Source: Cylindrospermum sp. NIES-4074
GTDB lineage: Bacteria > Cyanobacteriota > Cyanobacteriia > Cyanobacteriales > Nostocaceae
Length of the DNA: 64,000 bases
Reading direction: 5' to 3'
Assembly: GCA_003994795.1 (NCBI GenBank)
Contig: AP018269.1
Coordinates: 1,068,725 to 1,132,724, forward strand
Every line of letters begins with the position of its first letter. Within the stretch, counting starts at the first letter, position 1. The notes beneath the pieces were generated by a model. The model was not told the origin of the DNA. It saw nothing but the letters and a program-made list of their open reading frames with translations, and searched no databases. Below, piece by piece: positions 6,173-58,663 of the stretch. Made by a program: the position numbers and the translations under genes.

Positions 6173-6949
6173 ATGCTTAATCTGTCCGGAAAAAACGCTC
6201 TTGTTACAGGTATTGCCAATAATCGCTCGATCGCCTGGGGCATCGCTCAACAACTGCACAAAGCAGGCGCGAACTTGGGCATTACCTACTTGCCAGATGA
6301 GCGCGGCAAGATGGAGAAAAAAGTCGCCGAGTTGGTAGAACCCCTCAACCCCAGCTTATTTCTTCCCTGTAATGTCCAAAACGACGAACAGATTCAGTCT
6401 ACCTTTGAGACTATTCGCGATCAGTGGGGCAGGCTAGATATCTTGATCCACTGTCTGGCCTTTGCTAACAAAGATGATTTAAGCGGAGGTTTTAGCCAAA
6501 CCTCTCGCGCTGGATTCAATCTCGCTTTAGAAGTCAGCACCTATTCACTAGCGCAATTAAGCGGTGCTGCTAAACCTCTGATGACAGAGGGCGGCAGCAT
6601 TATCACCCTCACATATTTAGGTGGCGTGAGAGCCATTCCCAATTACAATGTGATGGGAGTCGCTAAAGCAGGTTTAGAAGCAAGTGTGCGTTACTTAGCT
6701 GCTGAACTAGGCCCCCAAAATATCCGGGTGAATGCCATCTCAGCCGGGCCCATCCGCACTTTGGCATCTTCAGCAGTAGGCGGGATTTTGGATATGATTC
6801 ACCATGTAGAACAAGTGGCTCCCCTAAGACGCACTGTTACTCAACAAGAAGTGGGTAATACAGCAGCTTTCTTGTCTAGCGATTTGGCCAGCGGTATCAC
6901 TGGGCAAGTCCTGTATGTAGATGCAGGATATGAAATCATGGGTATGTAA
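6173..6949 (+). CDS. fabI: enoyl-[acyl-carrier-protein] reductase (NADH) FabI
   Basis: SDR fold 'ALVTGIANNRSIAWGIAQ...', with the FabI-typical Y-x6-K region and length. Confidence 0.9.
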   Translation: MLNLSGKNALVTGIANNRSIAWGIAQQLHKAGANLGITYLPDERGKMEKKVAELVEPLNPSLFLPCNVQNDEQIQSTFETIRDQWGRLDILIHCLAFANKDDLSGGFSQTSRAGFNLALEVSTYSLAQLSGAAKPLMTEGGSIITLTYLGGVRAIPNYNVMGVAKAGLEASVRYLAAELGPQNIRVNAISAGPIRTLASSAVGGILDMIHHVEQVAPLRRTVTQQEVGNTAAFLSSDLASGITGQVLYVDAGYEIMGM

Positions 6950-6951
6950 TA

Positions 6952-7046
6952 AATTTGGTAATGGCTAATTGGTAATGGCTAATTGGTAATAGTCTTAATA
7001 ATTAGCAATTACCAATCCCCAATCCCCAATCTCTAATCCCTAATTC
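6952..7046. repeat. STRR heptamer hairpin (ttggtaa / ccccaat)
   Basis: Opposed heptamer tracts in the fabI-hisB spacer. Confidence 0.8.
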
Positions 7047-7048
7047 CT

Positions 7049-7678
7049 ATGCAAATCAGCGATCGCCAAATTCTTTCCCCATTTCCAACTTCCCGCATCG
7101 CCTCAGTTCATCGCACCACAGGCGAAACTGATGTCCATGTCACCATTAACCTCGATGGGACAGGAAAGTGCAACGCAGCAACCGGTATTCCTTTTTTGGA
7201 TCATATGTTGCAGCAAATTTCCTCTCACGGGCTAATTGACTTGGATGTGCAAGCCAAGGGAGACTTAGAAATTGATGACCACCACACCAACGAAGATGTG
7301 GGCATCACTTTAGGCCAAGCGTTGCATCAAGCACTAGGCGACAAAAAAGGTATTGTCCGCTTTGGTAATTTCCTCGCCCCCCTAGATGAAGCTTTAATTC
7401 AGGTGTCCCTAGATTTTTCTGGCAGACCCCACATCAGTTACGGTTTACAAATTCCTACCCAGCGGGTGGGAACCTATGACACCCAACTAGTACGCGAATT
7501 CTTTGTGGCATTGGTAAACCATAGCCAAATGACGCTGCACATTCGCCAACTGGATGGCATTAATTCCCATCACATTATTGAAGCGACATTTAAAGCCTTT
7601 GCTAGGTCAATTAGAATGGCAGTAGAACTTGATCCCCGTCGTGTAGGGACGATTCCCAGTTCTAAAGGCGTTTTATAA
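7049..7678 (+). CDS. hisB: imidazoleglycerol-phosphate dehydratase HisB
   Basis: '[16 protein letters not shown]...[17 protein letters not shown]', the IGPD signature. Confidence 0.9.
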
Positions 7679-7833
7679 ACTAGTTATAATTACTTAGAGA
7701 TAGAAAATGGTGATTGTTAATCACTAAAACATTCCTGAGTGCTGAGTAAGAAGTAAAATCAGACCGACTAAGCATCAACTTGGTCTGTTCACGTAGTGTT
7801 ACGGCAGGCTGGCTCCAAAATGCAGTATGGGTT

Positions 7834-7907
7834 CACTCAGCACTCAGCACTCAGCACTCCGTCCTCAGCACTCAGCACTCAGCACTCAGCACTCAACACT
7901 ACTAAAC
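7834..7907. repeat. STRR heptamer tract (cagcact x~9)
   Basis: Directly visible. It sits in-frame upstream of the ABC ATPase start. Confidence 0.8.
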
Positions 7908-7978
7908 TACTAGGCTGGCGATCATTGACACAACAGACGGTTATAGTTATTGTCAGCCTAGTGCTTGACCTATGTTTT

Positions 7979-8962
7979 ATGAAGTCTATCGCAGACGCTG
8001 CTGATTCTCAAGGCCATCTTACAAACAATCCACCAGTAGTCCTCACTTCTGAGTTGGGAAAAGTCTATCGCACTGGCTTTTGGCTAAATCAAAAAGTCGT
8101 ATCTCTCAAAAGCTGCTCTTTACAAGTTTATCAAGGGGAGACATTTGGATTACTAGGGCCCAATGGTGCTGGTAAAACCACTATTTTAAAACTGTTGCTG
8201 GGAATTATCCGTCCCACCTCTGGACGGGGGTTATTATTGGGTAAGCCAATAGGCGATCGCACAGTGAAGCAACGTATTGGCTATCTGCCAGAAAATCCCT
8301 ATTTATATGAATATCTCACTGGCTGGGAATTTTTGCAGCTAGCCGCTGGACTGTTTCAAATTCCCCAAAGTGTGCAACGCCAACGCATTCCCCAACTGCT
8401 GGAATTAGTGGGTTTATCCCCAGCCGAAGCCCGCAAAAAGCAACTTCGCCGCTACTCTAAAGGAATGCTTCAGCGTGTTGGTATGGCCCAGGCACTAATT
8501 AATGAACCAGACCTAGTATTTTTGGATGAACCCATGTCTGGTCTTGATCCTCTGGGACGCTACCAAATGCGAGAAATTATCCTCTCCCTCAAAGCGGCTG
8601 GTAAGACAATTTTCTTCAACAGCCATATTCTGAGTGAAGTGGAGCAAATTTGCGATCGCATTGCCATCCTCGCACAAGGGGAATTAATTTGTTCTGGTTC
8701 CCTTGATGAACTTTTAGACAGCGACAATACATATCACGTCAAAGGTCAAGGTGGTGACGGAGAAATTCTCAAAAAATGGATACCTAACCTCACATTTGAG
8801 CCTAATGGTTCTTGGCAAGGCACAATACAAGAGGATTACTATGATTTTCTTGCTAGTCTCCGTCTGATGGGAGGGCAAATTACGACAATGAACTTATCTC
8901 GCCAATCGCTGGAAGAGTTTTTTATCCAACAAATCCAAAAACAAAATAACTCTGTTAATTAA
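7979..8962 (+). CDS. ABC transporter ATP-binding protein
   Basis: Walker A 'GPNGAGKTT', ABC signature 'YSKGMLQRVGMAQAL', Walker B 'LVFLDEP'. The track ORF starts at 7796 but its first 60 codons are heptamer STRR (cagcact) sequence, so start taken at 7979 (MKSIADAADSQ). Confidence 0.8.
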   Translation: MKSIADAADSQGHLTNNPPVVLTSELGKVYRTGFWLNQKVVSLKSCSLQVYQGETFGLLGPNGAGKTTILKLLLGIIRPTSGRGLLLGKPIGDRTVKQRIGYLPENPYLYEYLTGWEFLQLAAGLFQIPQSVQRQRIPQLLELVGLSPAEARKKQLRRYSKGMLQRVGMAQALINEPDLVFLDEPMSGLDPLGRYQMREIILSLKAAGKTIFFNSHILSEVEQICDRIAILAQGELICSGSLDELLDSDNTYHVKGQGGDGEILKKWIPNLTFEPNGSWQGTIQEDYYDFLASLRLMGGQITTMNLSRQSLEEFFIQQIQKQNNSVN

Positions 8963-42775: not shown

Positions 42776-42909
42776 GATGCTTCGGCTGAAGTGCTGAGGA
42801 GCCAGCCGCGTGGGCGGGTTTCCCGACTTGAGGAGCCACTGCGTTGCGGGGGTTCCCCCCGTTGAAGCAAGTGGCATCGGACTGGCGTTGCTGAGTGCTG
42901 AGTATAAAC
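42776..42909 (+). repeat. GC-rich dispersed repeat (element B), copy 1
   Basis: Roughly 130 bp, near-identical in reverse orientation to 54037..54161. Contains the cgggggg-aa-cccccg hairpin. Confidence 0.7.
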
Positions 42910-44888: not shown

Positions 44889-45632
44889 ATGGGCATTTGG
44901 CATTGCTTGGTTGCCTCTGGCTTTCTCAGTTTTTTTATATCTGGCTGTGGTGATTCGGCAACCTCATCAACAGAAACTACTAAGCAAGTTGTCCAGGAAA
45001 CTAATGTCGCTCAACTGTTGACAGAAGCACAGTCTAGCCAAAAAGCAGAAGATTTATTTGCTCAAGGCAATAATTCATTAGACGCACAACGTTACCAAGA
45101 AGCGATCGCATCATACGACAAAGCGATCGCCATTAAGCAAGAAAACCCAGAAGCGTGGATTAATCGCGGCAATGCTTTAACAGCGTTACAACGTTATCAA
45201 GAAGCGATCGCATCATACGACAAAGCGATCGCCATTCAACCAGACAAAGATGAAGCCTGGTATAACCGTGGTAATAGCTTAACCTCTTTGCAGCGTTACC
45301 CAGAAGCAATTGCAGCCTTCGACAAAGCGATCGCCATTAAACCGCAAAAATATGAAGCCTGGACGAACAGAGGCATTGCCCTGACTAAGTTACAGCGTTA
45401 TAAAGAAGCACTGGCATCCTATAATGAAGCGATCGGCATCAAGCCAGACTTACACGCAGCATATTACAACAAAGCCTGCTCTTATGCATTACAGAGCGAT
45501 GTTGAATCAACAATTGAGAACTTAGAAAAAGCCATCCAACTAATTCCTAATAAATACCAGAAATTAGCCAAAACTGATTCAGATTTTGATAAAGTCCGCG
45601 ACGACAAGCGCTTTCAAGAATTGATTCAATAG
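44889..45632 (+). CDS. TPR-repeat protein (lipoprotein-like signal)
   Basis: Multiple 'YQEAIASYDKAIAI(K/Q)P' 34-aa units. Confidence 0.8.
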   Translation: MGIWHCLVASGFLSFFISGCGDSATSSTETTKQVVQETNVAQLLTEAQSSQKAEDLFAQGNNSLDAQRYQEAIASYDKAIAIKQENPEAWINRGNALTALQRYQEAIASYDKAIAIQPDKDEAWYNRGNSLTSLQRYPEAIAAFDKAIAIKPQKYEAWTNRGIALTKLQRYKEALASYNEAIGIKPDLHAAYYNKACSYALQSDVESTIENLEKAIQLIPNKYQKLAKTDSDFDKVRDDKRFQELIQ

Positions 45633-45914
45633 CAGAAATGCTAGACGACTGGAAGTCGCGGCTACAAGAACAAAGTCTGCCTCCGCAGACTCAAAGAATT
45701 TGAAACCTGCTGACATTAAAAATTGATATTTCTTTATTTAGTCCACGAAGGTGGACTTCGTTTGTGTAGCCGCGAATTACATTCGCCAGGGCTTCGTTCG
45801 TTTGTGTAGCCGCGAATTACATTTGCTAGGGCTATGATTATTATTCCCCAGAATAAAAATATACCATACTAAAATGAGTATCAACTCGAAAATATTTAAA
45901 ACCTTAAAATTTGT

Positions 45915-47261
45915 ATGTATAGTACGATATCTTGGCGTTGGGTTGCTGGCTTTAGTATTGTTGCCCTATCACTCACCAGTTGTAACAACCCCAAAACAGG
46001 GAGAGACATTGGCAACCAAGCCACAGAAAGCGAAGTTTTAATCAACTACACCGACAAACCAGGACAAAGTGCAGAATTTCTTAAAACACCGGAAATACAA
46101 CAGCAGTCTACAACAGGTGCAAATTCCCAAGCCGGTGATGCAGTTGGGACATTCAAACGGGGTATGCCAATAAATGTTTATGCAGAGTCAGAAGCTGCCC
46201 AAAAGGCGGAAGACTTTTACAATCAGGGTAATAATTACGCTGTTCAGCAAAACTATCAGCAAGCGATCGCCATCAAACCTGACTTGCATCAAGCTTGGAA
46301 TAACCGAGGTTTTGCCCTTAGTAAGTTACAACCCTACTCCGATGCGATCAGGAGCATCCTACTTTGGCAAATATATCTTTTCTGTCTGATGGTGGAATTA
46401 GGTTCTTACGGCTTAATGAGATATGTGTCTTCCACAATGGGATGCTCCCATGCGATCGCTTTTTCATATGATGCGATCGCCATCAAACCTGACTTGCATC
46501 AAGCTTGGTATGGTAGAGGCTATGCCCTTGATAAGCTAAAACGCTACGAAGATGCAATTGCATCGTATGAAAAAGCGCTCGCCATCAAACCTGACGATGC
46601 TGAGGCTTGGAATAACCGAGGTGTTGCCCTTGGTAAATTACAACGCGACGAAGATGCGATCGCATCCTTTGATAAAGCGATCGCCATCAAACCTGACTAT
46701 GCTGAGGCTTGGTATAACCGAGGTTTTGCCTTTGGTAAGTTACAACGCTACTCCGAAGTGATCGCATCATATGAAAAAGGGCTCGCCATCAAACCTGACT
46801 ATGCTGATGCTTGGCATAACCGAGGTTTTGCCCTTGGTAAGTTACAACGCTACGAAGATGCGATCGCATCATATGAAAAAGCGATCGCCATCAAACCTGA
46901 CTATGCTGATGCTTGGCTATGCCGAGGTGTTACCCTTGGTAAGTTACAACGCTACGAAGATGCGATCACATCATACGACAAAGCGATCGCCATCAAACCT
47001 AACTATGCCTTAGCTTGGAATAACCGAGGTGTTGCCCTTGATAACTTACAACGCTACTCCGATGCGATCGCATCCTATGAAAAAGCGATCGCCATCAAAC
47101 CTGACAAATATGGAGCTTGGAATAACCGAGGTATTGCCCTTGGTGAGTTAAAACGCTATGAAGAAGCGCTCAAATCTTTTGATAAAGCAATTAGTATTAA
47201 CCCTAATTATCAATTAGCAATAAATAATCGCAAAGAGGTATTGAAACAACTAGGGCGTTAA
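45915..47261 (+). CDS. TPR-repeat protein carrying an in-frame 108-bp insertion (36 aa) that interrupts repeat 2
   Basis: Regular 34-aa TPR units ('AIAIKPDYAEAW(N/Y)NRGxALGKLQRY(E/S)DAIASYEK') except for 'RSILLWQIYLFCLMVELGSYGLMRYVSSTMGCSHAIAF', encoded by 46350..46457. Confidence 0.75.
   Translation: MYSTISWRWVAGFSIVALSLTSCNNPKTGRDIGNQATESEVLINYTDKPGQSAEFLKTPEIQQQSTTGANSQAGDAVGTFKRGMPINVYAESEAAQKAEDFYNQGNNYAVQQNYQQAIAIKPDLHQAWNNRGFALSKLQPYSDAIRSILLWQIYLFCLMVELGSYGLMRYVSSTMGCSHAIAFSYDAIAIKPDLHQAWYGRGYALDKLKRYEDAIASYEKALAIKPDDAEAWNNRGVALGKLQRDEDAIASFDKAIAIKPDYAEAWYNRGFAFGKLQRYSEVIASYEKGLAIKPDYADAWHNRGFALGKLQRYEDAIASYEKAIAIKPDYADAWLCRGVTLGKLQRYEDAITSYDKAIAIKPNYALAWNNRGVALDNLQRYSDAIASYEKAIAIKPDKYGAWNNRGIALGELKRYEEALKSFDKAISINPNYQLAINNRKEVLKQLGR
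46350..46449. mobile_element. 100-bp miniature inverted-repeat element inserted in the TPR gene (terminal inverted repeats GGAGCATCC, 8-bp target duplication ATGCGATC)
   Basis: Left end 'aggagcatcc' at 46350..46359 and right end 'gggatgctccc' at 46439..46449 are inverted repeats. 'atgcgatc' is present at 46342..46349 and 46450..46457. Confidence 0.6.
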
Positions 47262-47379
47262 ATTAGGGGTGAATTTAATTCCGTCCAAAATCTATTTACC
47301 ACCGCTTGCTCCCAACTGGGAATCCTACCTCATCTGTAATAACCAACTAAACCCCTTAATTACATAAATTTTAAGCGTT

Positions 47380-50896: not shown

Positions 50897-53800
50897 CTAT
50901 GAATAAGCTTCCATTGGCAGACAAGAACAAACGAAATTCCTGTCACCAAAAGCAGCATCAATTCTTCCCACATTCGGCCAAAATTTATGTTCTTTTGTCC
51001 AAGGTGCGGGGTAAGCAGCTTGTTCGCGAGAATAGGGATGATGCCATTCTCCGGTGATGAGACTTTCGGCAGTGTGGGGTGCGTTTTTCAACACATTGTC
51101 TTGAACATCCACCTTGCCTAATTCAATAGCGGCGATTTCTTGGCGAATGGCAATTAAAGCCTCACAAAAACGGTCTAATTCTTGTTTAGATTCGCTTTCT
51201 GTGGGTTCCACCATGATTGTACCGCCCACAGGCCAGGAGACAGTCGGGGCATGGAAACCGTAGTCCATGAGACGCTTGGCGACATCATCAATATCGATGT
51301 TGGCAGATTTTTTGAGCGATCGCAAATCTAAAATACACTCATGGGCAACTAAACCATTTTTCCCTTGATATAACACGGGATAATAAGCTTCCAGTTTCTT
51401 GGCGATGTAGTTGGCGTTGAGAATTGCCACTTTCGTTGCATCCGTCAAACCAGCAGCACCCATCATGGCAATATACATCCAAGAAATTACCAAAATGCTA
51501 GCACTACCCCAAGGCGCAGCAGCAACCGCCCCAATACCTTGTGTACCAGTTATCTTGACAACAGAATGTCCAGGGAGAAAGGGGACAAGATGGGAAGCAA
51601 CACCAATGGGCCCCATACCAGGGCCACCACCACCGTGAGGAATACAGAAAGTTTTGTGCAAGTTCAAATGACAGACATCTGCACCAATATCTCCAGGGCG
51701 ACAAATTCCCACTTGGGCATTCATATTCGCCCCATCCATGTAAACTTGTCCACCGTGACTATGAATAACAGCGCAGATTTCCTGAATTGATTCCTCAAAA
51801 ACGCCGTGAGTTGAAGGATATGTCACCATTAAAGCAGCCAGTTCACGACTGTGTTTTTCTGCTTTCGCCTTCAAGTCTGCCACATCAACGTTACCTTGAG
51901 AGTCACAAGCAACTGCAACTACCTTCATTCCGCACATCACCGCACTCGCTGGGTTGGTTCCGTGTGCAGACTGGGGAATTAAACAAACGTTGCGGTGTGC
52001 TTCCCCACGGCTTTCGTGATATTCACGAATCACCAAAAGTCCTGTATACTCGCCTTGAGAACCAGCATTTGGTTGTAGAGAAATTCCCGCAAACCCAGTA
52101 ATTTCTGCTAACCATGCCTCAAGTTGCTGAAACAGGATTTGATAACCCCGTGTTTGAGATAAAGGTGCAAAAGGATGAATATTGCCAAACTCTGCCCAAG
52201 TTACCGGCATCATCTCCGCTGTAGCGTTTAACTTCATTGTGCAAGATCCCAAAGGAATCATGGATGTAGTTAAAGATAAATCCTTAGTTTCTAACTTGTG
52301 CAGATAGCGCAATAACTCAGTTTCTGAATGATAGCGGTTGAAAATGGGGTGAGTTAAGTAACTGCTTTGGCGAGTTTGGGGGAGAGATGGGGATGAAAAA
52401 GTTACTTCTTCTAAAGTAAAAGGTAGATTATCAGTATTGGCGAAAATCTGCCAAAGGTCGATTAAATCTTCTGGTGTCGTGGTTTCATCCAGAGAAATAC
52501 CAATAGCACTAGTATCAAAAACGCGCAAGTTTATATTTCTGGCTGTGGCAGCTGCGAGAATAGTTTCTAAATTCTGGGTTCCCAATTCCACCCGCAGCGT
52601 ATCAAAGAAGAATTCAGAACTGATGCTATAACCCAGACGCTTCAACCCTGCTGCTAAAATTACAGTTAGCTGGTGGATATTTTCGGCGATCGCTTTTAAT
52701 CCATCTGGCCCATGATAAACAGCATACATACTGGCCATCACCGCCAGCAAGACTTGGGCTGTGCAAATATTACTAGTAGCTTTTTCTCGGCGGATATGTT
52801 GTTCACGGGTTTGTAAAGCCAGACGCAATGCAGGCTTGCCATTAACATCTTGAGAAACACCCACAATTCGCCCTGGAACCAGCCGTTTATACTCTTCTTT
52901 GGTGGCAAAGTATGCAGCATGAGGCCCCCCAAAGCCGAAGGGAATACCAAACCGCTGTGTGCTGCCTACGGCAATATCAGCCCCAAATTCGCCGGGGGGT
53001 GTGAGTAAAGTTAAGCTTAAAGGATCTGCCGCTATCGTCACCAATGCACCTTGAGCATGGGCTGTTTCGATAAAAGCGCGGTAGTCGTAAATTGTGCCAT
53101 CAGTGGCGGGATATTGGAGAATTGCCCCAAAAATCGGTTGTTGAAAGTCAAATGTTTGATGGTTGCCAACAATGAGGTTAATTCCCAAGGGTTGCGCCCT
53201 AGTTTGCAACACGTCGATGGTTTGGGGATGGCATTCCTCAGAGACAAAATAGCCGACAGCCTTATTTTTGCTGACACCATAACTGAGACTCATGGCTTCT
53301 GCTGCTGCTGTTGCTTCATCCAGTAAGGAAGCGTTGGCAATTTCCAAACCTGTCAAGTCAATAATCATGGTTTGGAAATTCAGCAGTGCTTCTAGTCTAC
53401 CTTGGGCAATTTCTGGTTGATAAGGAGTGTAAGCAGTATACCAACCGGGGTTTTCGAGGATATTCCGTTGAATTACTGGGGGAGTAATACAGTCGTAATA
53501 TCCAGTACCGATGAATGAACGGAAAACCTGATTTTTATCAGCGATTTGCTTTAACTTTGCCAGTGCAGCATACTCGCTTTGTGCTTCTGGTAACTGTAGC
53601 GCTTTGGTTAGCCGAATTGCCTGTGGCACTGTGGCATCAATGAGGGTATCAAGACTCTCAAACCCCAGTACATCAAGCATTTGCTGGATATCGTCAGAGT
53701 TTGGGCCTATGTGCCTTTGGGCAAAATTATTTAACTTTTGACTCTTATTATCTAGAATTTGGCGATCGCTAGACTGAGTACGAGGAACATAAATTACCAC
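50897..53800 (-). CDS. gcvP: glycine dehydrogenase (decarboxylating), glycine cleavage system P protein
   Basis: Full-length about 960 aa with both PLP-dependent halves ('[24 protein letters not shown]'). Confidence 0.95.
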
Positions 53801-53931
53801 AAACTGCTCTCCAGACGCTACTAATTAATATTTTGCAACAAATACTCAAGACAAGTCAGGGGTAATTCATCTGTTTATCTAAATTTTTATAATTTATTTC
53901 CTGACGGTGTGCCTTTACCAATAGGGTGACG

Positions 53932-54036
53932 GGGGAGAAATTCAAAATCACTCCCCACTCCCCACTCCTCACTCCTCACTCCTCACTCCTCACTCCTCAC
54001 TCCTCACTCCTCACTCAGCACTCAGCACTCAGCACT
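53932..54036. repeat. STRR heptamer tract (cactcct x~8, then cagcact x4)
   Basis: Directly visible. It generates the spurious ORF 53926..54282. Confidence 0.85.
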
Positions 54037-54161
54037 CAGCAACGCCAGTCCGACGCCACTTGCTTCAACGGGGGGAACCCCCGCAACGCAGTGGCTCCTC
54101 AAGTCGGGAAACCCGCCCACGCGGCTGGCTCCTCAGCACTCAGCACTTTAGCCGAAGCATC
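54037..54161 (-). repeat. GC-rich dispersed repeat (element B), copy 2, reverse orientation
   Basis: Reverse complement of 42776..42909 with 2-3 mismatches. Confidence 0.7.
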
Positions 54162-54176
54162 GAGCACTCCTTACTC

Positions 54177-54569
54177 CTACACCCCTTCTACTTGGGCACT
54201 ATACTCATCTGCTGTCAAGGTATCCTCAAAAACTTCGCCAGGGTCATTGACACGCACTTTTACAAACCACCCTTCGCGGTAGGGGTCATCAGTTATTTGT
54301 TCGGTATCGTCAATTAAGGGGTCATTGCGTTCTATTACCGTACCAGTCACTGGAGAATTTAGTTCTTCCACAGCTTTCACAGATTCAATTGTGCCAAACC
54401 TATCTCCCTTGGTAATAGCGTCACCAACATCTGGCAGTTCCAAAAACACAATATCACCCAATTGCTCAACGGCAAACTCAGTAATGCCAATGGTGGCAAT
54501 ATCGCCATCTATCCGCACATACTCATGAGAATCTAAATATCTCAAATCTTGAGGATATTCAAAAGACAT
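54177..54569 (-). CDS. gcvH: glycine cleavage system H protein (copy adjacent to gcvP)
   Basis: Lipoyl-lysine motif '[17 protein letters not shown]'. Full H-protein length. Confidence 0.9.
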
Positions 54570-54689
54570 AACACTTCACCTTACACATTAAAAAAATTTA
54601 GTGTCCCAAAATTAATCCCAGCCATATCTAGGAATGAACCTGGCTGGAGATTAAGTAACTCACAACACATTATTCCTCAAAACCGCTAT

Positions 54690-54842
54690 GGTGATCAGTT
54701 GTTAACACGATTTTTTGAGCGATAAAAGGGACGTTTCACCACAACTGCGGGGTAAGCTTTACCGCGAATTTCTACGAAAAGCGCCTTTCCCACGGTTGCA
54801 AACTCGGTGGGAACGTAGCCTAAAGCTATGGGATAACTGAGT
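54690..54842 (-). pseudogene. duplicated 3' fragment of gcvT (about 50 codons), with the duplicated gcvT-gcvH intergenic region
   Basis: 54590..54842 aligns at about 90% identity with 55625..55862 (gcvT C-terminal codons + spacer). There is no upstream gcvT body. Confidence 0.6.
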
Positions 54843-55210
54843 GTAGGGGACACGCCTCTCCATTGGTGTCAACTTAAGCTAGAAATCCTTTGTCCGTTGG
54901 TTTACACACCCGCCCACACCCGCCTGGAAATGAATTAGCCTACGGCAACGCTACGCGAACAAGGCTAATAGCCAAAGTCTACTGAAGTAGACTAAAGATT
55001 TTTCGGGATATTTAGTCATCTTGAGATGACTTTTGTTATTAGCAAGGAACTTCAGTTCCTTGCGGGACATGAGTTTTCCCTTAAGTTGATACCAATGCAC
55101 CTTCTCGTTCTCAGACTCCGACTGTACTCTGTATGGGAACGAGAAGGCGTAAAACACAGGGTTTACAAAGTTTTTCTCCTTAAGTTGACACGTATGAGCA
55201 TTGTTGTGCC

Positions 55211-55606
55211 CTAATCCTCACTGCCTTCAACCAGGGCGCTATACTCATCTGCTGTCAATGCATCTTCAATAGCTTCTAAATCATTGAGGCGCACCTTCAG
55301 AAACCACCCCGTACCGTAGGGATCATCTCCTGTATCTTCAGGATTATCAATCAAGGGTTGATTGCGTTCTATAACTGTACCGCTCACTGGTGAATAAAGT
55401 GTTTCCACAGCTTTCACTGATTCAATTGTGCCCAAACTATCCCCCCTGGCAACAGTGACACCAACTTCTAGCAGGTCTAAAAACACGATATCACCCATTT
55501 GATTAAGGGCATACTGCGTCACACCAATGGTGGCAATATCGTCCTCTATCCGCACATATTCATGAGAATCAAAGTAGCTCAAATCTTGAGGGTATTGCAA
55601 AGCCAT
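55211..55606 (-). CDS. gcvH: glycine cleavage system H protein, second copy (about 70% aa identity to the first)
   Basis: 'ESVKAVETLYSPVSGTV' lipoyl motif. Directly downstream of gcvT. Confidence 0.85.
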   Translation of the reverse strand: MALQYPQDLSYFDSHEYVRIEDDIATIGVTQYALNQMGDIVFLDLLEVGVTVARGDSLGTIESVKAVETLYSPVSGTVIERNQPLIDNPEDTGDDPYGTGWFLKVRLNDLEAIEDALTADEYSALVEGSED

Positions 55607-55712
55607 AACTATTCCCCTTACGAGTTAAAAAATGAGTTTACCTACCTGCCACATCTGGGAATGAACCAGCGTTGAGATTAAGTAACCCACAACACATTAT
55701 TCCTCAAAAACA

Positions 55713-56867
55713 TCAGCTGGCACGATTTTTTGAGCGATAAAAAGGACGTTTCACCACAACTGCGGGGTAAGCTTTCCCGCGAATTTCCACGAATAGCGCC
55801 TTTCCCACGGTTGCAAACTCGGCGGGAACGTAGCCTAAAGCTATGGGATAACTGAGTGTGGGCGATAAAGTCCCACTGCTAACTTCTCCAATAAATTCAC
55901 CTGCGGCTAAGATGGGGTAGCCGTGACGGGCTATATTTCGTCCTGGGGTTTGCAAACCTACCAAACGGCGTTTTACCCCAATTGCTTTTTGCTGTGCCAA
56001 AACTTCCCGCCCAATAAAATCATCTTTGGTATCTAGATGAACTAACCACCCTAAACCGGCTTCTAAGGGGGTGGTGGTGTCGTCGATATCTTGTCCATAA
56101 AGTGCCATTGCTGCTTCTAGACGCAGGGTATCTCTTGCACCAAGTCCGCAAGGGATGACACCAACATTATAGAGATGTTGCCATAATTCTATCCCTACCT
56201 CTGGGTCTACCATCACTTCAAATCCATCTTCCCCGGTGTAACCTGTACGGGCTAGGAAAGCGGGTTTACCCAATACTGTTGTTTCTAAATGTCCAAAGGC
56301 TTTAACGGGTGTTAAGTCTGCTGCTACCACTGACTGGAGATAGCTTGTGGCTTGGGGCCCTTGGACGGCAATTAAGGCTTTGGCTGGGGAAATGTCTTGG
56401 AATTGCACTTCATTAGTATCAAGATGTGGTAAAATCCATCCCTTGTCTTTAGCAGTGGTGGCAGCATTAACGATTATTACCGCCTTTTGAGTGCCAGTGG
56501 GGTCTGTACCTTGGTAATAAATGATGATGTCGTCAATAATTCCGGCTTGGGGATTTAATAATACGGTGTATTGGGCTTGACCAGGTTGCAAGCGACTCAA
56601 ATCTGAGGGAACTAAGGGCTGGAGTTGGGAAATCAGGTTTTTACCTTGGAGGGTAAATTTTCCCATGTGGGAAATATCGAACATCCCGGCTGTATTTCTC
56701 ACAGCGTGGTGTTCTTGGATGATGCCGCTATATTGCACCGGCATTTCCCAACCGCCAAAGCTGGTAAAGCGGGCTTTGAGTTCTACACCCAATTGATATA
56801 AAGGGGTTCGCGCCAGGGATTCAGTGATATGTTCTTGATTAGCCACAGGTATTTTATGCGATCGCAC
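55713..56867 (-). CDS. gcvT: aminomethyltransferase, glycine cleavage system T protein
   Basis: 'TPLYQLGVELKARFTSFGGWEMPVQY', 'GMFDISHMGKF', and a full-length T protein. Confidence 0.9.
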   Translation of the reverse strand: MRSHKIPVANQEHITESLARTPLYQLGVELKARFTSFGGWEMPVQYSGIIQEHHAVRNTAGMFDISHMGKFTLQGKNLISQLQPLVPSDLSRLQPGQAQYTVLLNPQAGIIDDIIIYYQGTDPTGTQKAVIIVNAATTAKDKGWILPHLDTNEVQFQDISPAKALIAVQGPQATSYLQSVVAADLTPVKAFGHLETTVLGKPAFLARTGYTGEDGFEVMVDPEVGIELWQHLYNVGVIPCGLGARDTLRLEAAMALYGQDIDDTTTPLEAGLGWLVHLDTKDDFIGREVLAQQKAIGVKRRLVGLQTPGRNIARHGYPILAAGEFIGEVSSGTLSPTLSYPIALGYVPAEFATVGKALFVEIRGKAYPAVVVKRPFYRSKNRAS

Positions 56868-56943
56868 CTCAACATCTCTCTATCCTACGTAGTGCGGTTT
56901 AATAGTTAATGGTGGATTTGTTGAGATTTATTAACAACTGATT

Positions 56944-57441
56944 ATGAAGTATAGCCAAATACTAGCTAGTTTTGTCTTAGCTATGGTGCTTTTTTTGTCT
57001 CCCCTAACGGCGCAAGCCGCGAGTTCTTCGAGTGTTATCCGTAATTTTGGGAATGAAGAACTCAACGGTAAGGATTATTCTGGGAAAAGTTTAATCGGGA
57101 TTGAGTTTAGCAATGTGGATTTAAAGACAGCCAATTTTAGCAATGCTGATTTACGGGGTGTGGTGTTTAACGGGACTTTTTTAGAGGGTGCAAATCTGCA
57201 TGGTGTGGATTTTAGTGAAGGTATTGCCTATTTGGTAAATTTCAAGGGGGCTGATTTGAGTGATGCGGTGTTGACTGATGCGATGATGTTGCGATCGCTT
57301 TTTGATGATGTTAATGTCACTAATGCTGATTTCACAAACGCTGTTTTGGATGGTGTGCAGGTGAAGAAGCTTTGCGCTAAAGCCAGCGGTGTGAATTCTA
57401 AGACTGGTGTGGATACTCGTGAGTCTTTAGGTTGTAGGTAG
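56944..57441 (+). CDS. pentapeptide-repeat protein with signal peptide (thylakoid-lumen type)
   Basis: Signal 'LSPLTAQAAS' followed by A(D/N)LxG pentapeptide repeats. Confidence 0.75.
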   Translation: MKYSQILASFVLAMVLFLSPLTAQAASSSSVIRNFGNEELNGKDYSGKSLIGIEFSNVDLKTANFSNADLRGVVFNGTFLEGANLHGVDFSEGIAYLVNFKGADLSDAVLTDAMMLRSLFDDVNVTNADFTNAVLDGVQVKKLCAKASGVNSKTGVDTRESLGCR

Positions 57442-58170: not shown

Positions 58171-58663
58171 TAGTCAGTTATGGCAAAGTGCAAAGTGCTG
58201 AGTGCTGAGTGCTGAGTGCTCGATGCTTCGGCTGAAGTGCTGAGTGTATAAACCCAGATGAAGAAGGCAGGAGGCAGGAGGCAGAAGGTTTTTTTGCAGG
58301 AGGGGATTCCAACCCCTCCTGAAAAAGAGCCACCAAATTGAAAATTTGCTGGGGGTCTTAAACCCTTGTTCCCTTTGGTCACCTCCGGAAACCGAGGGCA
58401 GTTTTCCTCCTGCCTCCTGCCCTCTGCCTCCTGCCTTCTTTGATAAATTTGGACTAATAATCACTTATATTTATCCTTTTAAAAACAAAGAGTATTTGCT
58501 CTTATCTTTTGGTCAGCGTACATTGAAAGTCATCAGCTTAAACACAGATAGAAATAACTCTTGGAAGGTGCATCATGAATCCATTTAAAACAGTATTGTC
58601 AAACCGCATTGAGACAAAAGTAGTTAACAGACCTCATGTTATTTTACAATCCTCAAACAAAAG

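What the first reader, a model, noticed from the sequence alone, without database searches (positions are those of the whole stretch)
54177..55862. Partial tandem duplication of gcvT-3'end + gcvH, where the non-coding spacer is more conserved than the coding sequence
Order on the minus strand is gcvT, gcvH(2), a 350-nt spacer, a roughly 150-bp gcvT 3' fragment, gcvH(1), repeats, gcvP.
- The duplicated gcvT-tail + gcvT-gcvH intergenic spacer (54590..54842 vs 55625..55862) is about 90% identical.
- The two gcvH coding sequences are only about 75-80% identical at nucleotide level and about 70% at amino-acid level.
This implies either gene conversion restricted to the spacer, a conserved regulatory or RNA element in the gcvT-gcvH spacer, or accelerated divergence of one H-protein copy (sub-functionalisation; H proteins also serve lipoate relay).
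Basis: seen in the sequence. Interest (0 to 1): 0.55.

Follow-up and report, generated by a model that had tools for sequence, protein, structure and literature searches.

The report
Two old gcvH alleles joined in tandem
In Cylindrospermum sp. NIES-4074 the glycine-cleavage operon carries two long-diverged versions of the small H-protein gene side by side, joined by recombination that left a young 145-base stub of the upstream gcvT gene; this is an ordinary, if neatly preserved, intermediate of one gene version replacing another.

Summary
The structure is real. On the minus strand the order is gcvT, gcvH "H2", a 357-nt gap, a 145-nt gcvT-tail relic (T'), a spacer, gcvH "H1", heptamer repeats, gcvP. 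An independent assembly of a related strain (L003) has the same junction.

- The near-identical part is the gcvT tail (5 mismatches in 139 nt) plus a 32-nt core of the spacer.
- The true spacer is 80% identical (70% with gaps).
- The gcvH coding sequences are 78% identical.
- Divergence jumps from 3.6% to 22% a few codons before the gcvT stop.

This is not an in-place duplication followed by divergence.
- H1 and H2 are never sister genes (bootstrap 0–0.3%).
- H2 is the type found as the only gcvH in C. stagnale, and is far closer to it (dS 0.15) than the flanking genes are (0.26–0.61).
- H1 is the type a close relative (L001) has alone, directly after a full gcvT.
- T' is only as old as the strain cluster.

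Best reading: two allelic cassettes were joined by recombination, an intermediate of in-situ gene displacement. In L003, H1 is already decaying and has lost its lipoyl-lysine. The spacer core is conserved across Nostocaceae, with no RNA-structure signal. Interest is low to moderate.

The parts
55713..56867 (-). Full-length gcvT (aminomethyltransferase). Its last 3-4 codons (..NRAS*) are of the type-B allele.
   Evidence: ORF. 96-98% aa identity to gcvT of L001, L003 and L087, and 85% to C. stagnale.
55607..55724 (-). Type-B cassette start: the last gcvT codons plus spacer B. It has an 8-nt deletion relative to type A and Nostoc.
   Evidence: Alignments. There are 0-2 mismatches in 114 nt to L087 and L003, 5-6 in about 112 nt to L088 and C. 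stagnale, and 24-27 in 114 nt to type A.
55674..55705 (-). Conserved 32-nt spacer core, copy B (GAGGAATAATGTGTTGTGGGTTACTTAATCTC).
   Evidence: The core is present with 0-7 mismatches in the gcvT-gcvH spacers of Cylindrospermum, Nostoc and Komarekiella.
55211..55606 (-). gcvH 'H2' (type B, 131 aa). The lipoyl-lysine motif ESVKA is intact.
   Evidence: TIGR00527 score 143.9 bits against a cutoff of 115.85. Best relatives are C. stagnale PCC 7417 at 87% and L003/L087 at 94-95%. dS to C. stagnale is 0.148, against 0.26-0.61 for six neighbouring genes.
55098..55210 (-). 113-nt segment after H2, shared with L003. It holds a solo TIR-like motif (55179-55196) and a hairpin with an 11-13-bp stem (55100-55147). 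It ends at the junction with T'.
   Evidence: It is not homologous to the gcvH-gcvP intergenic region of C. stagnale, L088 or FACHB-282 beyond about 15 nt.
54853..55097 (.). Insertion absent from L003. It is a 237-nt element (54861-55097) with 18-nt terminal inverted repeats, plus an imperfect 8-nt direct repeat (54853-54860). It is MITE-like and is not part of the original junction.
   Evidence: (I2).
54695..54853 (-). T': relic of the last ~48 codons of gcvT. It keeps the type-A C-terminus ..NRVNN*.
   Evidence: It matches only GcvT profile positions 317-362, at 43.5 bits against a cutoff of 235.85. There are 5 mismatches in 139 nt to the window's own gcvT tail and 4 in 139 nt to the tails of L001 and L087. 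The same relic in L003 carries a frameshifting 5-nt deletion.
54570..54694 (-). Spacer A (type-A gcvT-gcvH spacer). It includes core copy A at 54647-54678 and a type-A-specific hairpin.
   Evidence: 1 mismatch in 136 nt to L001. It retains Nostoc-like states that type B has lost. The fold z-score is -2.7, but the hairpin is not conserved.
54177..54569 (-). gcvH 'H1' (type A, 130 aa). The lipoyl-lysine is intact. There is one change (P89T) at a proline that is invariant in the other 34 sequences of the comparison set and in H2.
   Evidence: TIGR00527 score 148.3 bits. 93% identical to the H of L001, and 80-84% to Nostoc, Desmonostoc, Dolichospermum and Cronbergia. dN/dS against L001 is 0.13.
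53801..54176 (-). H1-gcvP intergenic region. It holds a ~130-nt dispersed repeat (54027-54164) and heptamer tandem arrays (about 53930-54040). The last 46 nt before gcvP are homologous to C. stagnale.
   Evidence: (D2, D9).
50897..53800 (-). gcvP (glycine dehydrogenase), the downstream end of the operon.
   Evidence: ORF. 90% aa identity to C. stagnale and dS 0.535.

Best explanation
The locus is a recombinational joining of two pre-existing, long-diverged allelic cassettes of the gcvT-end / spacer / gcvH segment. It is not a duplication that later diverged.

Type A consists of the gcvT ending ..RVNN, spacer A and H1. A closely related strain (L001) has this form alone, directly behind a full gcvT.

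Type B consists of the gcvT ending ..RA(S), spacer B and H2. It is the only form in C. stagnale PCC 7417, L088 and FACHB-282.

The event happened in the ancestor of the NIES-4074 strain cluster, whose gcvT genes differ by 3-5%. A type-B cassette came to lie directly behind the intact gcvT. The type-A cassette was shifted about 1 kb downstream, still carrying a 145-nt stub of the gcvT tail.

The stub dates the joining event and is young. The two gcvH genes and spacers carry the much older allelic split. That is why the flank looks 'more conserved' than the genes.

Inferred steps:
1. Type B most likely entered this lineage from the C. stagnale group by homologous replacement, with the left crossover in the last gcvT codons.
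2. A type-B chromosome and a type-A chromosome were then joined. These could have been two sister strains, or two copies in a polyploid cell. The join was either homology-anchored illegitimate recombination or unequal crossing-over.

The tandem is a transient, redundant stage of in-situ gene displacement. L003 is losing H1. L001 has H1 only.

Separately, part of the spacer (a 32-nt core and flanking blocks) is conserved because it is a constrained cis element of Nostocaceae gcv operons.
For: Shown directly:
1. There is a sharp divergence changepoint 3-6 codons before the gcvT stop: 5/139 against 109/501 mismatches (p = 3.7e-8).
2. H1 and H2 are not sisters. Bootstrap support for H1 + Cylindrospermum-H2 monophyly is 0.3% on protein and 0% on all codon positions. 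The H2 clade has 93-100% support and the H1 clade 88%.
3. The T' core differs from every gcvT tail of the strain cluster by 4-5 nt in 139, and those tails differ from each other by 4-7 nt. T' is therefore as old as the cluster and not older, and it is not preferentially similar to its own gcvT.
4. The gcvT tail is not intrinsically slow. Between the window and C. stagnale it differs by 12-13%, while H2 differs by 8%.
5. Relatives show all the predicted states at the same locus.
   - gcvT-H2-gcvP in C. stagnale, L088 and FACHB-282.
   - gcvT-spacer A-H1-heptamers in L001 and L002.
   - gcvT-H2-T'-H1 in L003, with the identical junction.
6. H2 is anomalously close to the C. stagnale group.
   - dS is 0.148 and 0.173, against 0.26-0.61 for six syntenic genes.
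   - The H/T dS ratio is 0.31-0.36, against a median of 1.24 (range 0.75-1.68) in 28 Nostoc pairs.
   - Cluster H2 nests inside the C. stagnale group (73%), whereas gcvT makes that group monophyletic (100%).
7. The distances of H1 track those of gcvT. Against Nostoc L009 they are 82% aa and dS 0.50 for H1, and 82% aa and dS 0.57 for gcvT.
8. Redundancy has consequences. H1 of L003 carries K65R at the lipoyl-lysine, plus A66S, F42H, P96I, an insertion and a ~75-nt H2-derived conversion tract.
Against: - The direction of transfer (B incoming, A resident) is not secure.
  - Every other named Cylindrospermum genome sampled has type B only.
  - H1 groups weakly with Nostoc (77% in the nucleotide NJ tree; unresolved on protein), which could mean that H1 is the foreign allele.
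  - gcvH dS values plateau at 0.5-0.7 for all deep comparisons. The good fit of H1-to-C. stagnale dS (0.51) to the local background is therefore weak evidence.
- H2-type genes show low dS relative to gcvT in all eight Cylindrospermum comparisons, including within the cluster. Part of the anomaly could be a lower synonymous rate rather than transfer.
- The trees are neighbour-joining on about 130 codons.
- No relative with known full context shows a B-only state inside the NIES-4074 cluster. The L087 contig ends 25 nt after H2.
- The two-step mechanism is inferred from end products only.
Confidence: 0.62

Rival explanations
1. Same mosaic origin, opposite direction. Type B (H2) is the native Cylindrospermum allele. 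Type A (the RVNN gcvT end + spacer A + H1) was acquired from a lineage outside the sampled Cylindrospermum. It first replaced H2 in an L001-like strain. It was then inserted downstream of H2 in the NIES-4074 ancestor, anchored by homology in gcvP, bringing a stub of the donor strain's gcvT tail.
For: - All named Cylindrospermum genomes outside the cluster have type B as their only gcvH.
- H2 distances roughly follow gcvT rank order within the genus.
- H1 is 80-84% identical to many Nostoc, Desmonostoc, Dolichospermum and Cronbergia H proteins. It groups with the Nostoc clade at 77% in the all-position nucleotide NJ tree.
- The structure itself is symmetric with respect to direction.
Against: - H2 is three to four times too similar at synonymous sites to the C. 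stagnale group, relative to gcvT, gcvP and four other neighbouring genes.
- H2 nests inside that group, in conflict with the gcvT tree.
- Spacer A shares derived states with spacer B against Nostoc (CTTAATCTC, TTCC, GTAAGG). So type A is not simply Nostoc-derived.
- No donor closer than 84% is known.
- By gcvT, Cylindrospermum is nearer to Nostoc than to Sphaerospermopsis. It is H2, not H1, that has the unexpected affinity, to S. aphanizomenoides.
Confidence: 0.22
2. An ancient in-place tandem duplication of (gcvT tail + spacer + gcvH) occurred in an early Cylindrospermum ancestor. One H copy then evolved faster. Repeated gene conversion from gcvT kept the stub similar, and different lineages lost one copy or the other. 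This is essentially the first reader's scenario.
For: - The structure looks like a tandem duplication.
- Inter-copy gene conversion demonstrably occurs in L003.
- The L001 state (gcvT directly followed by H1) is what recombination between gcvT and T' would produce.
Against: - H1 + H2 monophyly has 0-0.3% bootstrap support (14% on third codon positions alone).
- T' is equidistant from all gcvT tails of the cluster, not closest to its own. In L003 it decays freely.
- Conversion would have to stop exactly at the gcvT stop codon in every lineage.
- The scenario needs several independent, precise losses of T'-H1 in C. stagnale, L088 and FACHB-282, with no repeat to mediate them.
- It does not explain the low H2 dS against the C. 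stagnale group.
Confidence: 0.1
3. The high identity upstream of gcvH is mainly functional constraint. The duplicated gcvT tail + spacer would carry a cis-regulatory or RNA element, such as an internal promoter, operator or leader for gcvH-gcvP. Selection would preserve this element in both copies.
For: - The gcvT-gcvH spacer is unusually conserved across genera. Mean column identity is 81% across 13 sequences, with a 32-nt near-invariant core.
- Within each allele type the spacer changes less than gcvT does. There is 1 mismatch in 136 nt between the window and L001, and 0-2 in 114 nt within type B, against 3-5% in the gcvT body.
Against: - Constraint explains only the core.
  - Overall the spacers differ by 22% with three indels.
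  - The most similar stretch is the gcvT coding tail. In orthologous comparisons that tail diverges normally (12-17%), and in L003's T' it decays.
- There is no Rfam family, no covariation (consensus fold -3.4 kcal/mol) and no consistent promoter match.
Confidence: 0.05

Closest known systems
In-situ xenologous (or homeologous) gene displacement in operons. The concept is Omelchenko et al. 2003, recalled from my own knowledge. The term is used in PMC9425974 and PMC1274311, which were found but not read in detail.
   Same: - A gene inside a conserved operon (gcvT-gcvH-gcvP) exists in two phylogenetically incongruent versions at exactly the same position in related genomes.
- Here one genome holds both versions.
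   Different: - The classical cases are inferred from end states, with one version per genome. This locus preserves the intermediate: both versions plus a recombination scar.
- The exchange is between fairly close relatives (same family, probably same genus), not distant phyla.
C-terminal / module displacement at Rhs, CDI and T6SS effector-immunity loci. The proposed mechanism is homology-facilitated illegitimate recombination (Kirchberger et al. 2017, PMC5361080, read, which cites Jackson 2009, de Vries & Wackernagel 2002 and Prudhomme 2002).
   Same: - A new module sits directly behind the intact conserved upstream sequence.
- The old module is pushed downstream as an 'orphan' that still carries a stub of the conserved upstream gene's 3' end.
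- Related strains show replacement without an orphan as well as arrays with one.
   Different: - This is a housekeeping metabolic gene, not a toxin-immunity system. No diversifying selection or immunity retention is evident.
- There is a single displaced module, and it is decaying in L003.
- A simple one-step event from a C. stagnale-type donor does not fit, because both gcvT tails are cluster-like. A two-step route or unequal crossing-over must be assumed.
Multiple GcvH paralogues with divided roles. Examples are B. subtilis GcvH as a lipoyl relay, S. aureus GcvH-L, and plant H-protein isoforms (own knowledge; context in PMC10332631, listed but not read).
   Same: There are two full-length H proteins, each with an intact lipoyl-lysine motif, in one genome. 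Both pass the GcvH equivalog model.
   Different: - Neither copy matches the 'not_gcvH' or GcvH-related models.
- The copies are adjacent alleles of the same operon slot.
- One is lost or decaying in sister strains.
- There is no evidence for a separate lipoate-relay role.

Membership tests
GcvH, glycine cleavage system H protein (TIGR00527 / PF01597) | Whole-protein score above the curated equivalog cutoff | tested here: met
   H1 scores 148.3 bits and H2 143.9 bits, against a cutoff of 115.85. The 'not_gcvH' model TIGR03077 scores far below its own cutoff.
GcvH, glycine cleavage system H protein (TIGR00527 / PF01597) | Lipoyl-lysine in the conserved E-S-V-K-A motif | tested here: met
   Both window copies have IESVKAVE. 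The H1 copy in the relative L003 has IESVRSVE, so the lysine is lost there.
GcvH, glycine cleavage system H protein (TIGR00527 / PF01597) | The protein is actually lipoylated and shuttles the aminomethyl group between the P, T and L proteins | not testable with these tools
   This needs biochemistry or proteomics.
GcvT (TIGR00528): status of the 54695-54853 fragment | Full-length aminomethyltransferase domain | tested here: not met
   Only profile positions 317-362 of 362 are matched, at 43.5 bits against a cutoff of 235.85. It is a relic, not a gene.
Simple tandem segmental duplication followed by divergence | The two gene copies are each other's closest relatives (sister paralogues) | tested here: not met
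   H1 + Cylindrospermum-H2 monophyly has 0.3% bootstrap support (protein NJ, 300 replicates), 0% on all codon positions and 14% on third positions.
Simple tandem segmental duplication followed by divergence | Neutral parts of the repeat unit are at least as diverged as the synonymous sites of the genes in it | tested here: not met
   The T' relic is 3.6% diverged (5/139), against gcvH dS of 0.53. The changepoint has p = 3.7e-8.
In-situ gene displacement / module displacement by recombination | Alternative versions occupy the same operon slot in related genomes, and the gene tree conflicts with the flanking genes | tested here: met
   The states found are T-H2-P, T-H1 and T-H2-T'-H1. The H2 tree conflicts with the gcvT tree (73% against 100%). 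The dS ratio is 0.31-0.36 against a median of 1.24.
In-situ gene displacement / module displacement by recombination | The displaced module retains a stub of the conserved upstream gene, and the new module abuts the intact gene | tested here: met
   T' (145 nt) precedes spacer A and H1. The intact gcvT carries type-B terminal codons. Which module is 'new' is inferred, not shown.
In-situ gene displacement / module displacement by recombination | Mechanism: homologous anchor plus illegitimate join, or unequal crossing-over | not testable with these tools
   Only end products are available. The join site (55098 | 54852) shows no obvious microhomology beyond GTG/TGT.
Known structured cis-regulatory RNA (e.g. 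glycine riboswitch RF00504) in the spacer | Match to an Rfam covariance model, or covariation supporting a structure | tested here: not met
   No relevant Rfam match at E <= 10 in 53500-57200. RNAalifold gives -3.4 kcal/mol with 0 compensatory pairs.
MITE-like insertion (54861-55097) | Terminal inverted repeats, and presence/absence polymorphism at an otherwise collinear site | tested here: met
   The 18-nt TIRs match at 17 of 18 positions. L003 lacks the 245 nt exactly.
MITE-like insertion (54861-55097) | Target-site duplication and multiple genomic copies | tested here: inconclusive
   The flanking direct repeat is imperfect (GAGAAGGTG / GAGAGGCG). Only one further solo TIR-like site exists in the 64-kb window. 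The rest of the genome could not be searched.

The most novel reading that the evidence does not exclude
The type-B cassette would be an allele actively spreading by recombination through Cylindrospermum, and perhaps into Sphaerospermopsis aphanizomenoides. It consists of spacer B plus a fast-evolving H protein with many changes at otherwise near-invariant Nostocales positions. On this reading it displaces the ancestral type-A gcvH lineage by lineage because it confers an advantage in photorespiratory glycine handling. NIES-4074 and L003 would be snapshots of that sweep. Linked to it, the strongly conserved ~130-nt gcvT-gcvH spacer of Nostocaceae would be an undescribed cis-regulatory element that controls gcvH-gcvP expression and travels with each allele.
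Probability: 0.15. Interest if true: 0.5.

Novelty: new member of a known kind. Interest (0 to 1): 0.3.

Why it matters
The locus gives a clean, datable example of how an operon gene is swapped for a divergent version without breaking the operon. The incoming and resident alleles sit together, a gene stub marks the recombination joint, and sister strains show the outcomes: one copy deleted, or one copy decaying.

It also carries two practical warnings.
- A flank that is more conserved than the gene can signal mosaic ancestry rather than selection or conversion.
- Two adjacent gcvH annotations in Nostocales genomes need not mean functional specialisation.

The conserved gcvT-gcvH spacer core is a candidate regulatory site worth testing in model Nostoc strains.

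None of this changes our understanding of the glycine cleavage system itself.

Tried and rejected
- **Genome-contig scan with the gcvT protein.** The scan returned Nostoc and distant phyla but no Cylindrospermum. The Nostoc loci were still useful as rate controls.
- **Two metagenome contigs pattern scans.** I searched a type-A-specific 29-mer and the Cylindrospermum form of the spacer core. Both gave 0 hits, so there is no extra population sample.
- **Protein search with the first 200 aa of gcvP.** The aim was to find contigs joining H1 or H2 to gcvP in the L001 and L087 strains. Only hits of 81% identity or less came back. The state downstream of H2 in L087 and downstream of H1 in L001 therefore stays unknown.
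- **Rfam at E <= 10.** Only chance-level hits. The two CRISPR-DR46-like hits lie inside the MITE-like insertion, well below threshold.
- **RNAalifold on 13 spacers and single-sequence folds.** Only a type-A-specific hairpin appeared, and it is not conserved.
- **Promoter and terminator scan.** Nothing above shuffle expectation, and nothing consistent between the two spacer types.
- **Literature.** I found no paper on this locus, and none mentioning all4607-all4609.
- **Assembly artefact.** Rejected because of L003.
- **Intrinsically slow gcvT tail.** Rejected because orthologous tails diverge by 12-17%.
- **The fit of H1-to-C. stagnale dS to the local background as proof that H1 is native.** Downgraded, because gcvH dS plateaus at 0.5-0.7 in all deep comparisons.


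Full report
**Identity and anatomy.** The window is from the chromosome of Cylindrospermum sp. NIES-4074. Both gcvH products match that genome's proteins at 100%. The genome is described in PMC8634303.

On the minus strand the order is as follows:
- gcvT 56867..55713
- gcvH "H2" 55606..55211
- a 357-nt gap
- a gcvT 3' fragment "T'" 54853..54695
- a spacer
- gcvH "H1" 54569..54177
- a 376-nt intergenic region with heptamer arrays
- gcvP 53800..50897

Both H proteins pass the NCBIfam GcvH equivalog cutoff and keep the lipoyl-lysine motif. T' matches only the last 46 residues of GcvT.

**Checking the observation.** The repeat is real (D1, D3, D4, D5), but its identity is strongly heterogeneous.
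- gcvT-tail core: 95% over 145 nt, or 5 mismatches in 139 nt.
- True non-coding spacer: 80% ungapped and 70% gapped, with three indels. Inside it is a 32-nt core with one mismatch.
- gcvH coding sequence: 78% nt and 67% aa.

A maximum-chi-square scan puts the changepoint just after ...AAAAAATCGTG, a few codons before the gcvT stop. There are 5/139 mismatches to the left and 109/501 to the right (Fisher p = 3.7e-8; permutation p about 0.0005). So 'spacer more conserved than CDS' should read 'gcvT stub, plus a short spacer core, more conserved than the rest of the spacer and gcvH'.

**Relatives.** The look-up of encoding contigs gave loci for the closest H proteins.

| Locus | Arrangement | Notes |
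|---|---|---|
| C. stagnale PCC 7417 (L004), L088, FACHB-282 (L089) | gcvT-gcvH-gcvP, one H of the H2 type | H is 80-88% aa identical to H2 |
| L001 / L002 | full gcvT, then spacer A and an H1-type gene, then the heptamer repeats where the contig ends | gcvT body 95.5% nt identical to the window; H is 93% aa identical to H1 |
| L003 | gcvT-H2-113 nt-T'-spacer A-H1, same junction as the window | 96% identical in gcvT-H2; lacks 245 nt |
| L087 | ends 25 nt after H2 | 97% identical |

The 245 nt that L003 lacks correspond to window 54853-55097. This is a 237-nt element with 18-nt terminal inverted repeats. The arrangement is therefore not an assembly artefact, and the 357-nt gap is 113 nt of original sequence plus a later MITE-like insertion.

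**Two haplotypes.** The alignment of eight units shows two discrete types.
- Type A: gcvT ending ..NRVNN*, spacer A, H1. Found in window copy A, L001 and L003 copy A.
- Type B: gcvT ending ..NRAS* or ..NRAIN*, spacer B with an 8-nt deletion, H2. Found in window copy B, L003, L087, L088 and C. stagnale.

The intact gcvT of the window carries the type-B terminal codons. T' carries the type-A ones.

**Ages.** The T' core differs by 5 nt in 139 from the window's gcvT tail. It differs by 4-5 nt from the tails of L001, L087 and L003, and those tails differ from one another by 4-7 nt. So T' separated from gcvT at about the time the strain cluster radiated (gcvT body divergence 3.1-4.9%). It is not preferentially homogenised with its own gcvT.

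In L003, T' has 10-16 mismatches and a frameshifting 5-nt deletion, as expected for a neutral relic. The tail is not intrinsically slow either. Between the window and the C. stagnale group it differs by 12-17%.

By contrast, H1 against H2 has dS 0.53 and dN 0.19, and the spacers differ by 22%.

**Phylogeny.**
- Protein NJ (44 taxa, 300 bootstraps): H1 clade 88%; Cylindrospermum H2 clade 93%; H1 + H2 monophyly 0.3%.
- Codon-aligned nucleotide NJ (26 taxa): H2 clade 100%, with S. aphanizomenoides 93%; H1 with the Nostoc/Komarekiella clade 77%; H1 + H2 monophyly 0% on all positions and 14% on third positions.

The two genes are therefore old allelic or xenologous lineages, not products of a recent duplication.

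**Which allele moved?** Between the window and C. stagnale, six syntenic genes give these dS values:
- pentapeptide 0.61
- gcvT 0.46
- gcvP 0.54
- AAA_33 0.26
- Thg1 0.45
- epimerase 0.57

H2 has 0.148 and H1 has 0.507.

The H/T dS ratio is 0.31-0.36 for the window against the C. stagnale group. Its median is 1.24 (range 0.75-1.68) in 28 Nostoc pairs. In a gcvT tree the C. stagnale group is monophyletic (100%), but the cluster's H2 nests inside it (73%).

By gcvT, Cylindrospermum is closer to Nostoc (dS 0.57-0.62) than to the Sphaerospermopsis / A. catenula group (0.82-1.04). H1 mirrors this: it is 82% aa identical to Nostoc L009, the same figure as gcvT. H2-type proteins instead resemble the Sphaerospermopsis group in amino-acid states.

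I therefore favour type A as resident and type B as introgressed from the C. stagnale group. There are three caveats.
- H2-type genes show low dS relative to gcvT in every Cylindrospermum comparison, including within the cluster.
- gcvH dS plateaus at 0.5-0.7 for all deep comparisons.
- All named Cylindrospermum genomes outside the cluster are B-only.

The opposite direction keeps about 0.2 probability.

**Mechanism (inferred).** A one-step insertion from a C. stagnale-like donor would leave one gcvT tail donor-like, at about 12% divergence. Neither tail is.

The simplest route has two steps.
1. Allelic replacement, with the left crossover in the last gcvT codons. This creates B-type and A-type chromosomes within one population or one polyploid cell.
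2. An unequal or homology-anchored illegitimate join between a point 113 nt past H2 on a B chromosome and a point 145 nt before the gcvT stop on an A chromosome.

The outcome is formally the same as the 'module displacement with orphaned 3' stub' described for Rhs and T6SS loci (PMC5361080).

**Fate of the copies.**
- Window H1 is intact. dN/dS against L001 is 0.13, and there is one change at an otherwise invariant proline.
- L003 H1 carries K65R at the lipoyl-lysine, A66S, F42H, P96I, an insertion, and a ~75-nt tract of H2 states.
- L001 has H1 only. It either never received B or deleted H2 by recombination between gcvT and T'.

This is redundancy resolving itself, not sub-functionalisation.

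**The spacer element.** Thirteen gcvT-gcvH spacers from Cylindrospermum, Nostoc and Komarekiella align throughout, with 81% mean column identity and a near-invariant core GAGGAATAATGTGTTGTGRGTTAC... Within an allele type the spacer changes less than gcvT does.

No structural or promoter signal supports a specific function.
- There is no Rfam match.
- There are no compensatory pairs.
- There is no consistent promoter-like site.
- There is no other copy in the window.

I infer a sequence-specific cis-regulatory site for gcvH-gcvP expression. Its function is untested.

**Verdict.** The feature is real. This is a mosaic tandem of two old gcvH alleles with a young recombination scar, a new example of a known evolutionary process. 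Interest is about 0.3.

Noticed in passing
window 54853-55097: A 237-nt element with 18-nt terminal inverted repeats (CATTGGTRTCAACTTAAG) and an imperfect 8/9-nt flanking direct repeat. It is absent from the collinear relative L003, so it is a recent MITE-like insertion into the H2-T' junction region.
   Followed up: partly
window 54962-54999 (+) and 55008-55045 (-): Two inverted ~38-nt hairpin-containing repeats, about 70% alike, inside the MITE-like element. They score sub-threshold to Rfam CRISPR-DR46 (25.9 and 24.6 bits against a gathering score of 50). Each reads as a terminator-like hairpin on the + strand.
   Followed up: no
window 55179-55196: A solo copy of the TIR motif (CATACGTGTCAACTTAAG, 2 mismatches) immediately after the H2 stop codon. 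It is also present in L003. It may be a remnant of an older element at the joint, and so may bear on how the junction formed.
   Followed up: no
window 54027-54164 and 42778-42905: A ~130-nt dispersed repeat, 99% identical over 114 nt and in inverted orientation. It is G+C-rich and contains internal direct repeats ending in GGCTCC. It is bounded by CTCAGCA-type heptamers.
   Followed up: partly
window 53930-54040, 7833-7900, 58192-58246: Heptamer tandem arrays (CTCACTC / CTCAGCA and their complements), typical short tandemly repeated sequences of heterocystous cyanobacteria. The L001 contig breaks in the homologous array.
   Followed up: no
L090 vs L093 (Sphaerospermopsis aphanizomenoides vs S. 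kisseleviana): The two Sphaerospermopsis species have gcvT proteins 88% identical but gcvH proteins only 74% identical. The S. aphanizomenoides H is 85% identical to that of C. stagnale. gcvH exchange may therefore also occur between genera.
   Followed up: partly
window ~45000-47300: A gene region with many internal repeats of roughly 100 nt. It appeared as dozens of staggered self-similar hits when the C. stagnale and FACHB-282 flanks were compared with the window.
   Followed up: no
L091 (Anabaena catenula) 6394-8436: gcvP does not follow gcvH in this relative. Other genes, including a DHFR, lie downstream. The gcvT-gcvH-gcvP order is therefore not universal in Nostocales.
   Followed up: no
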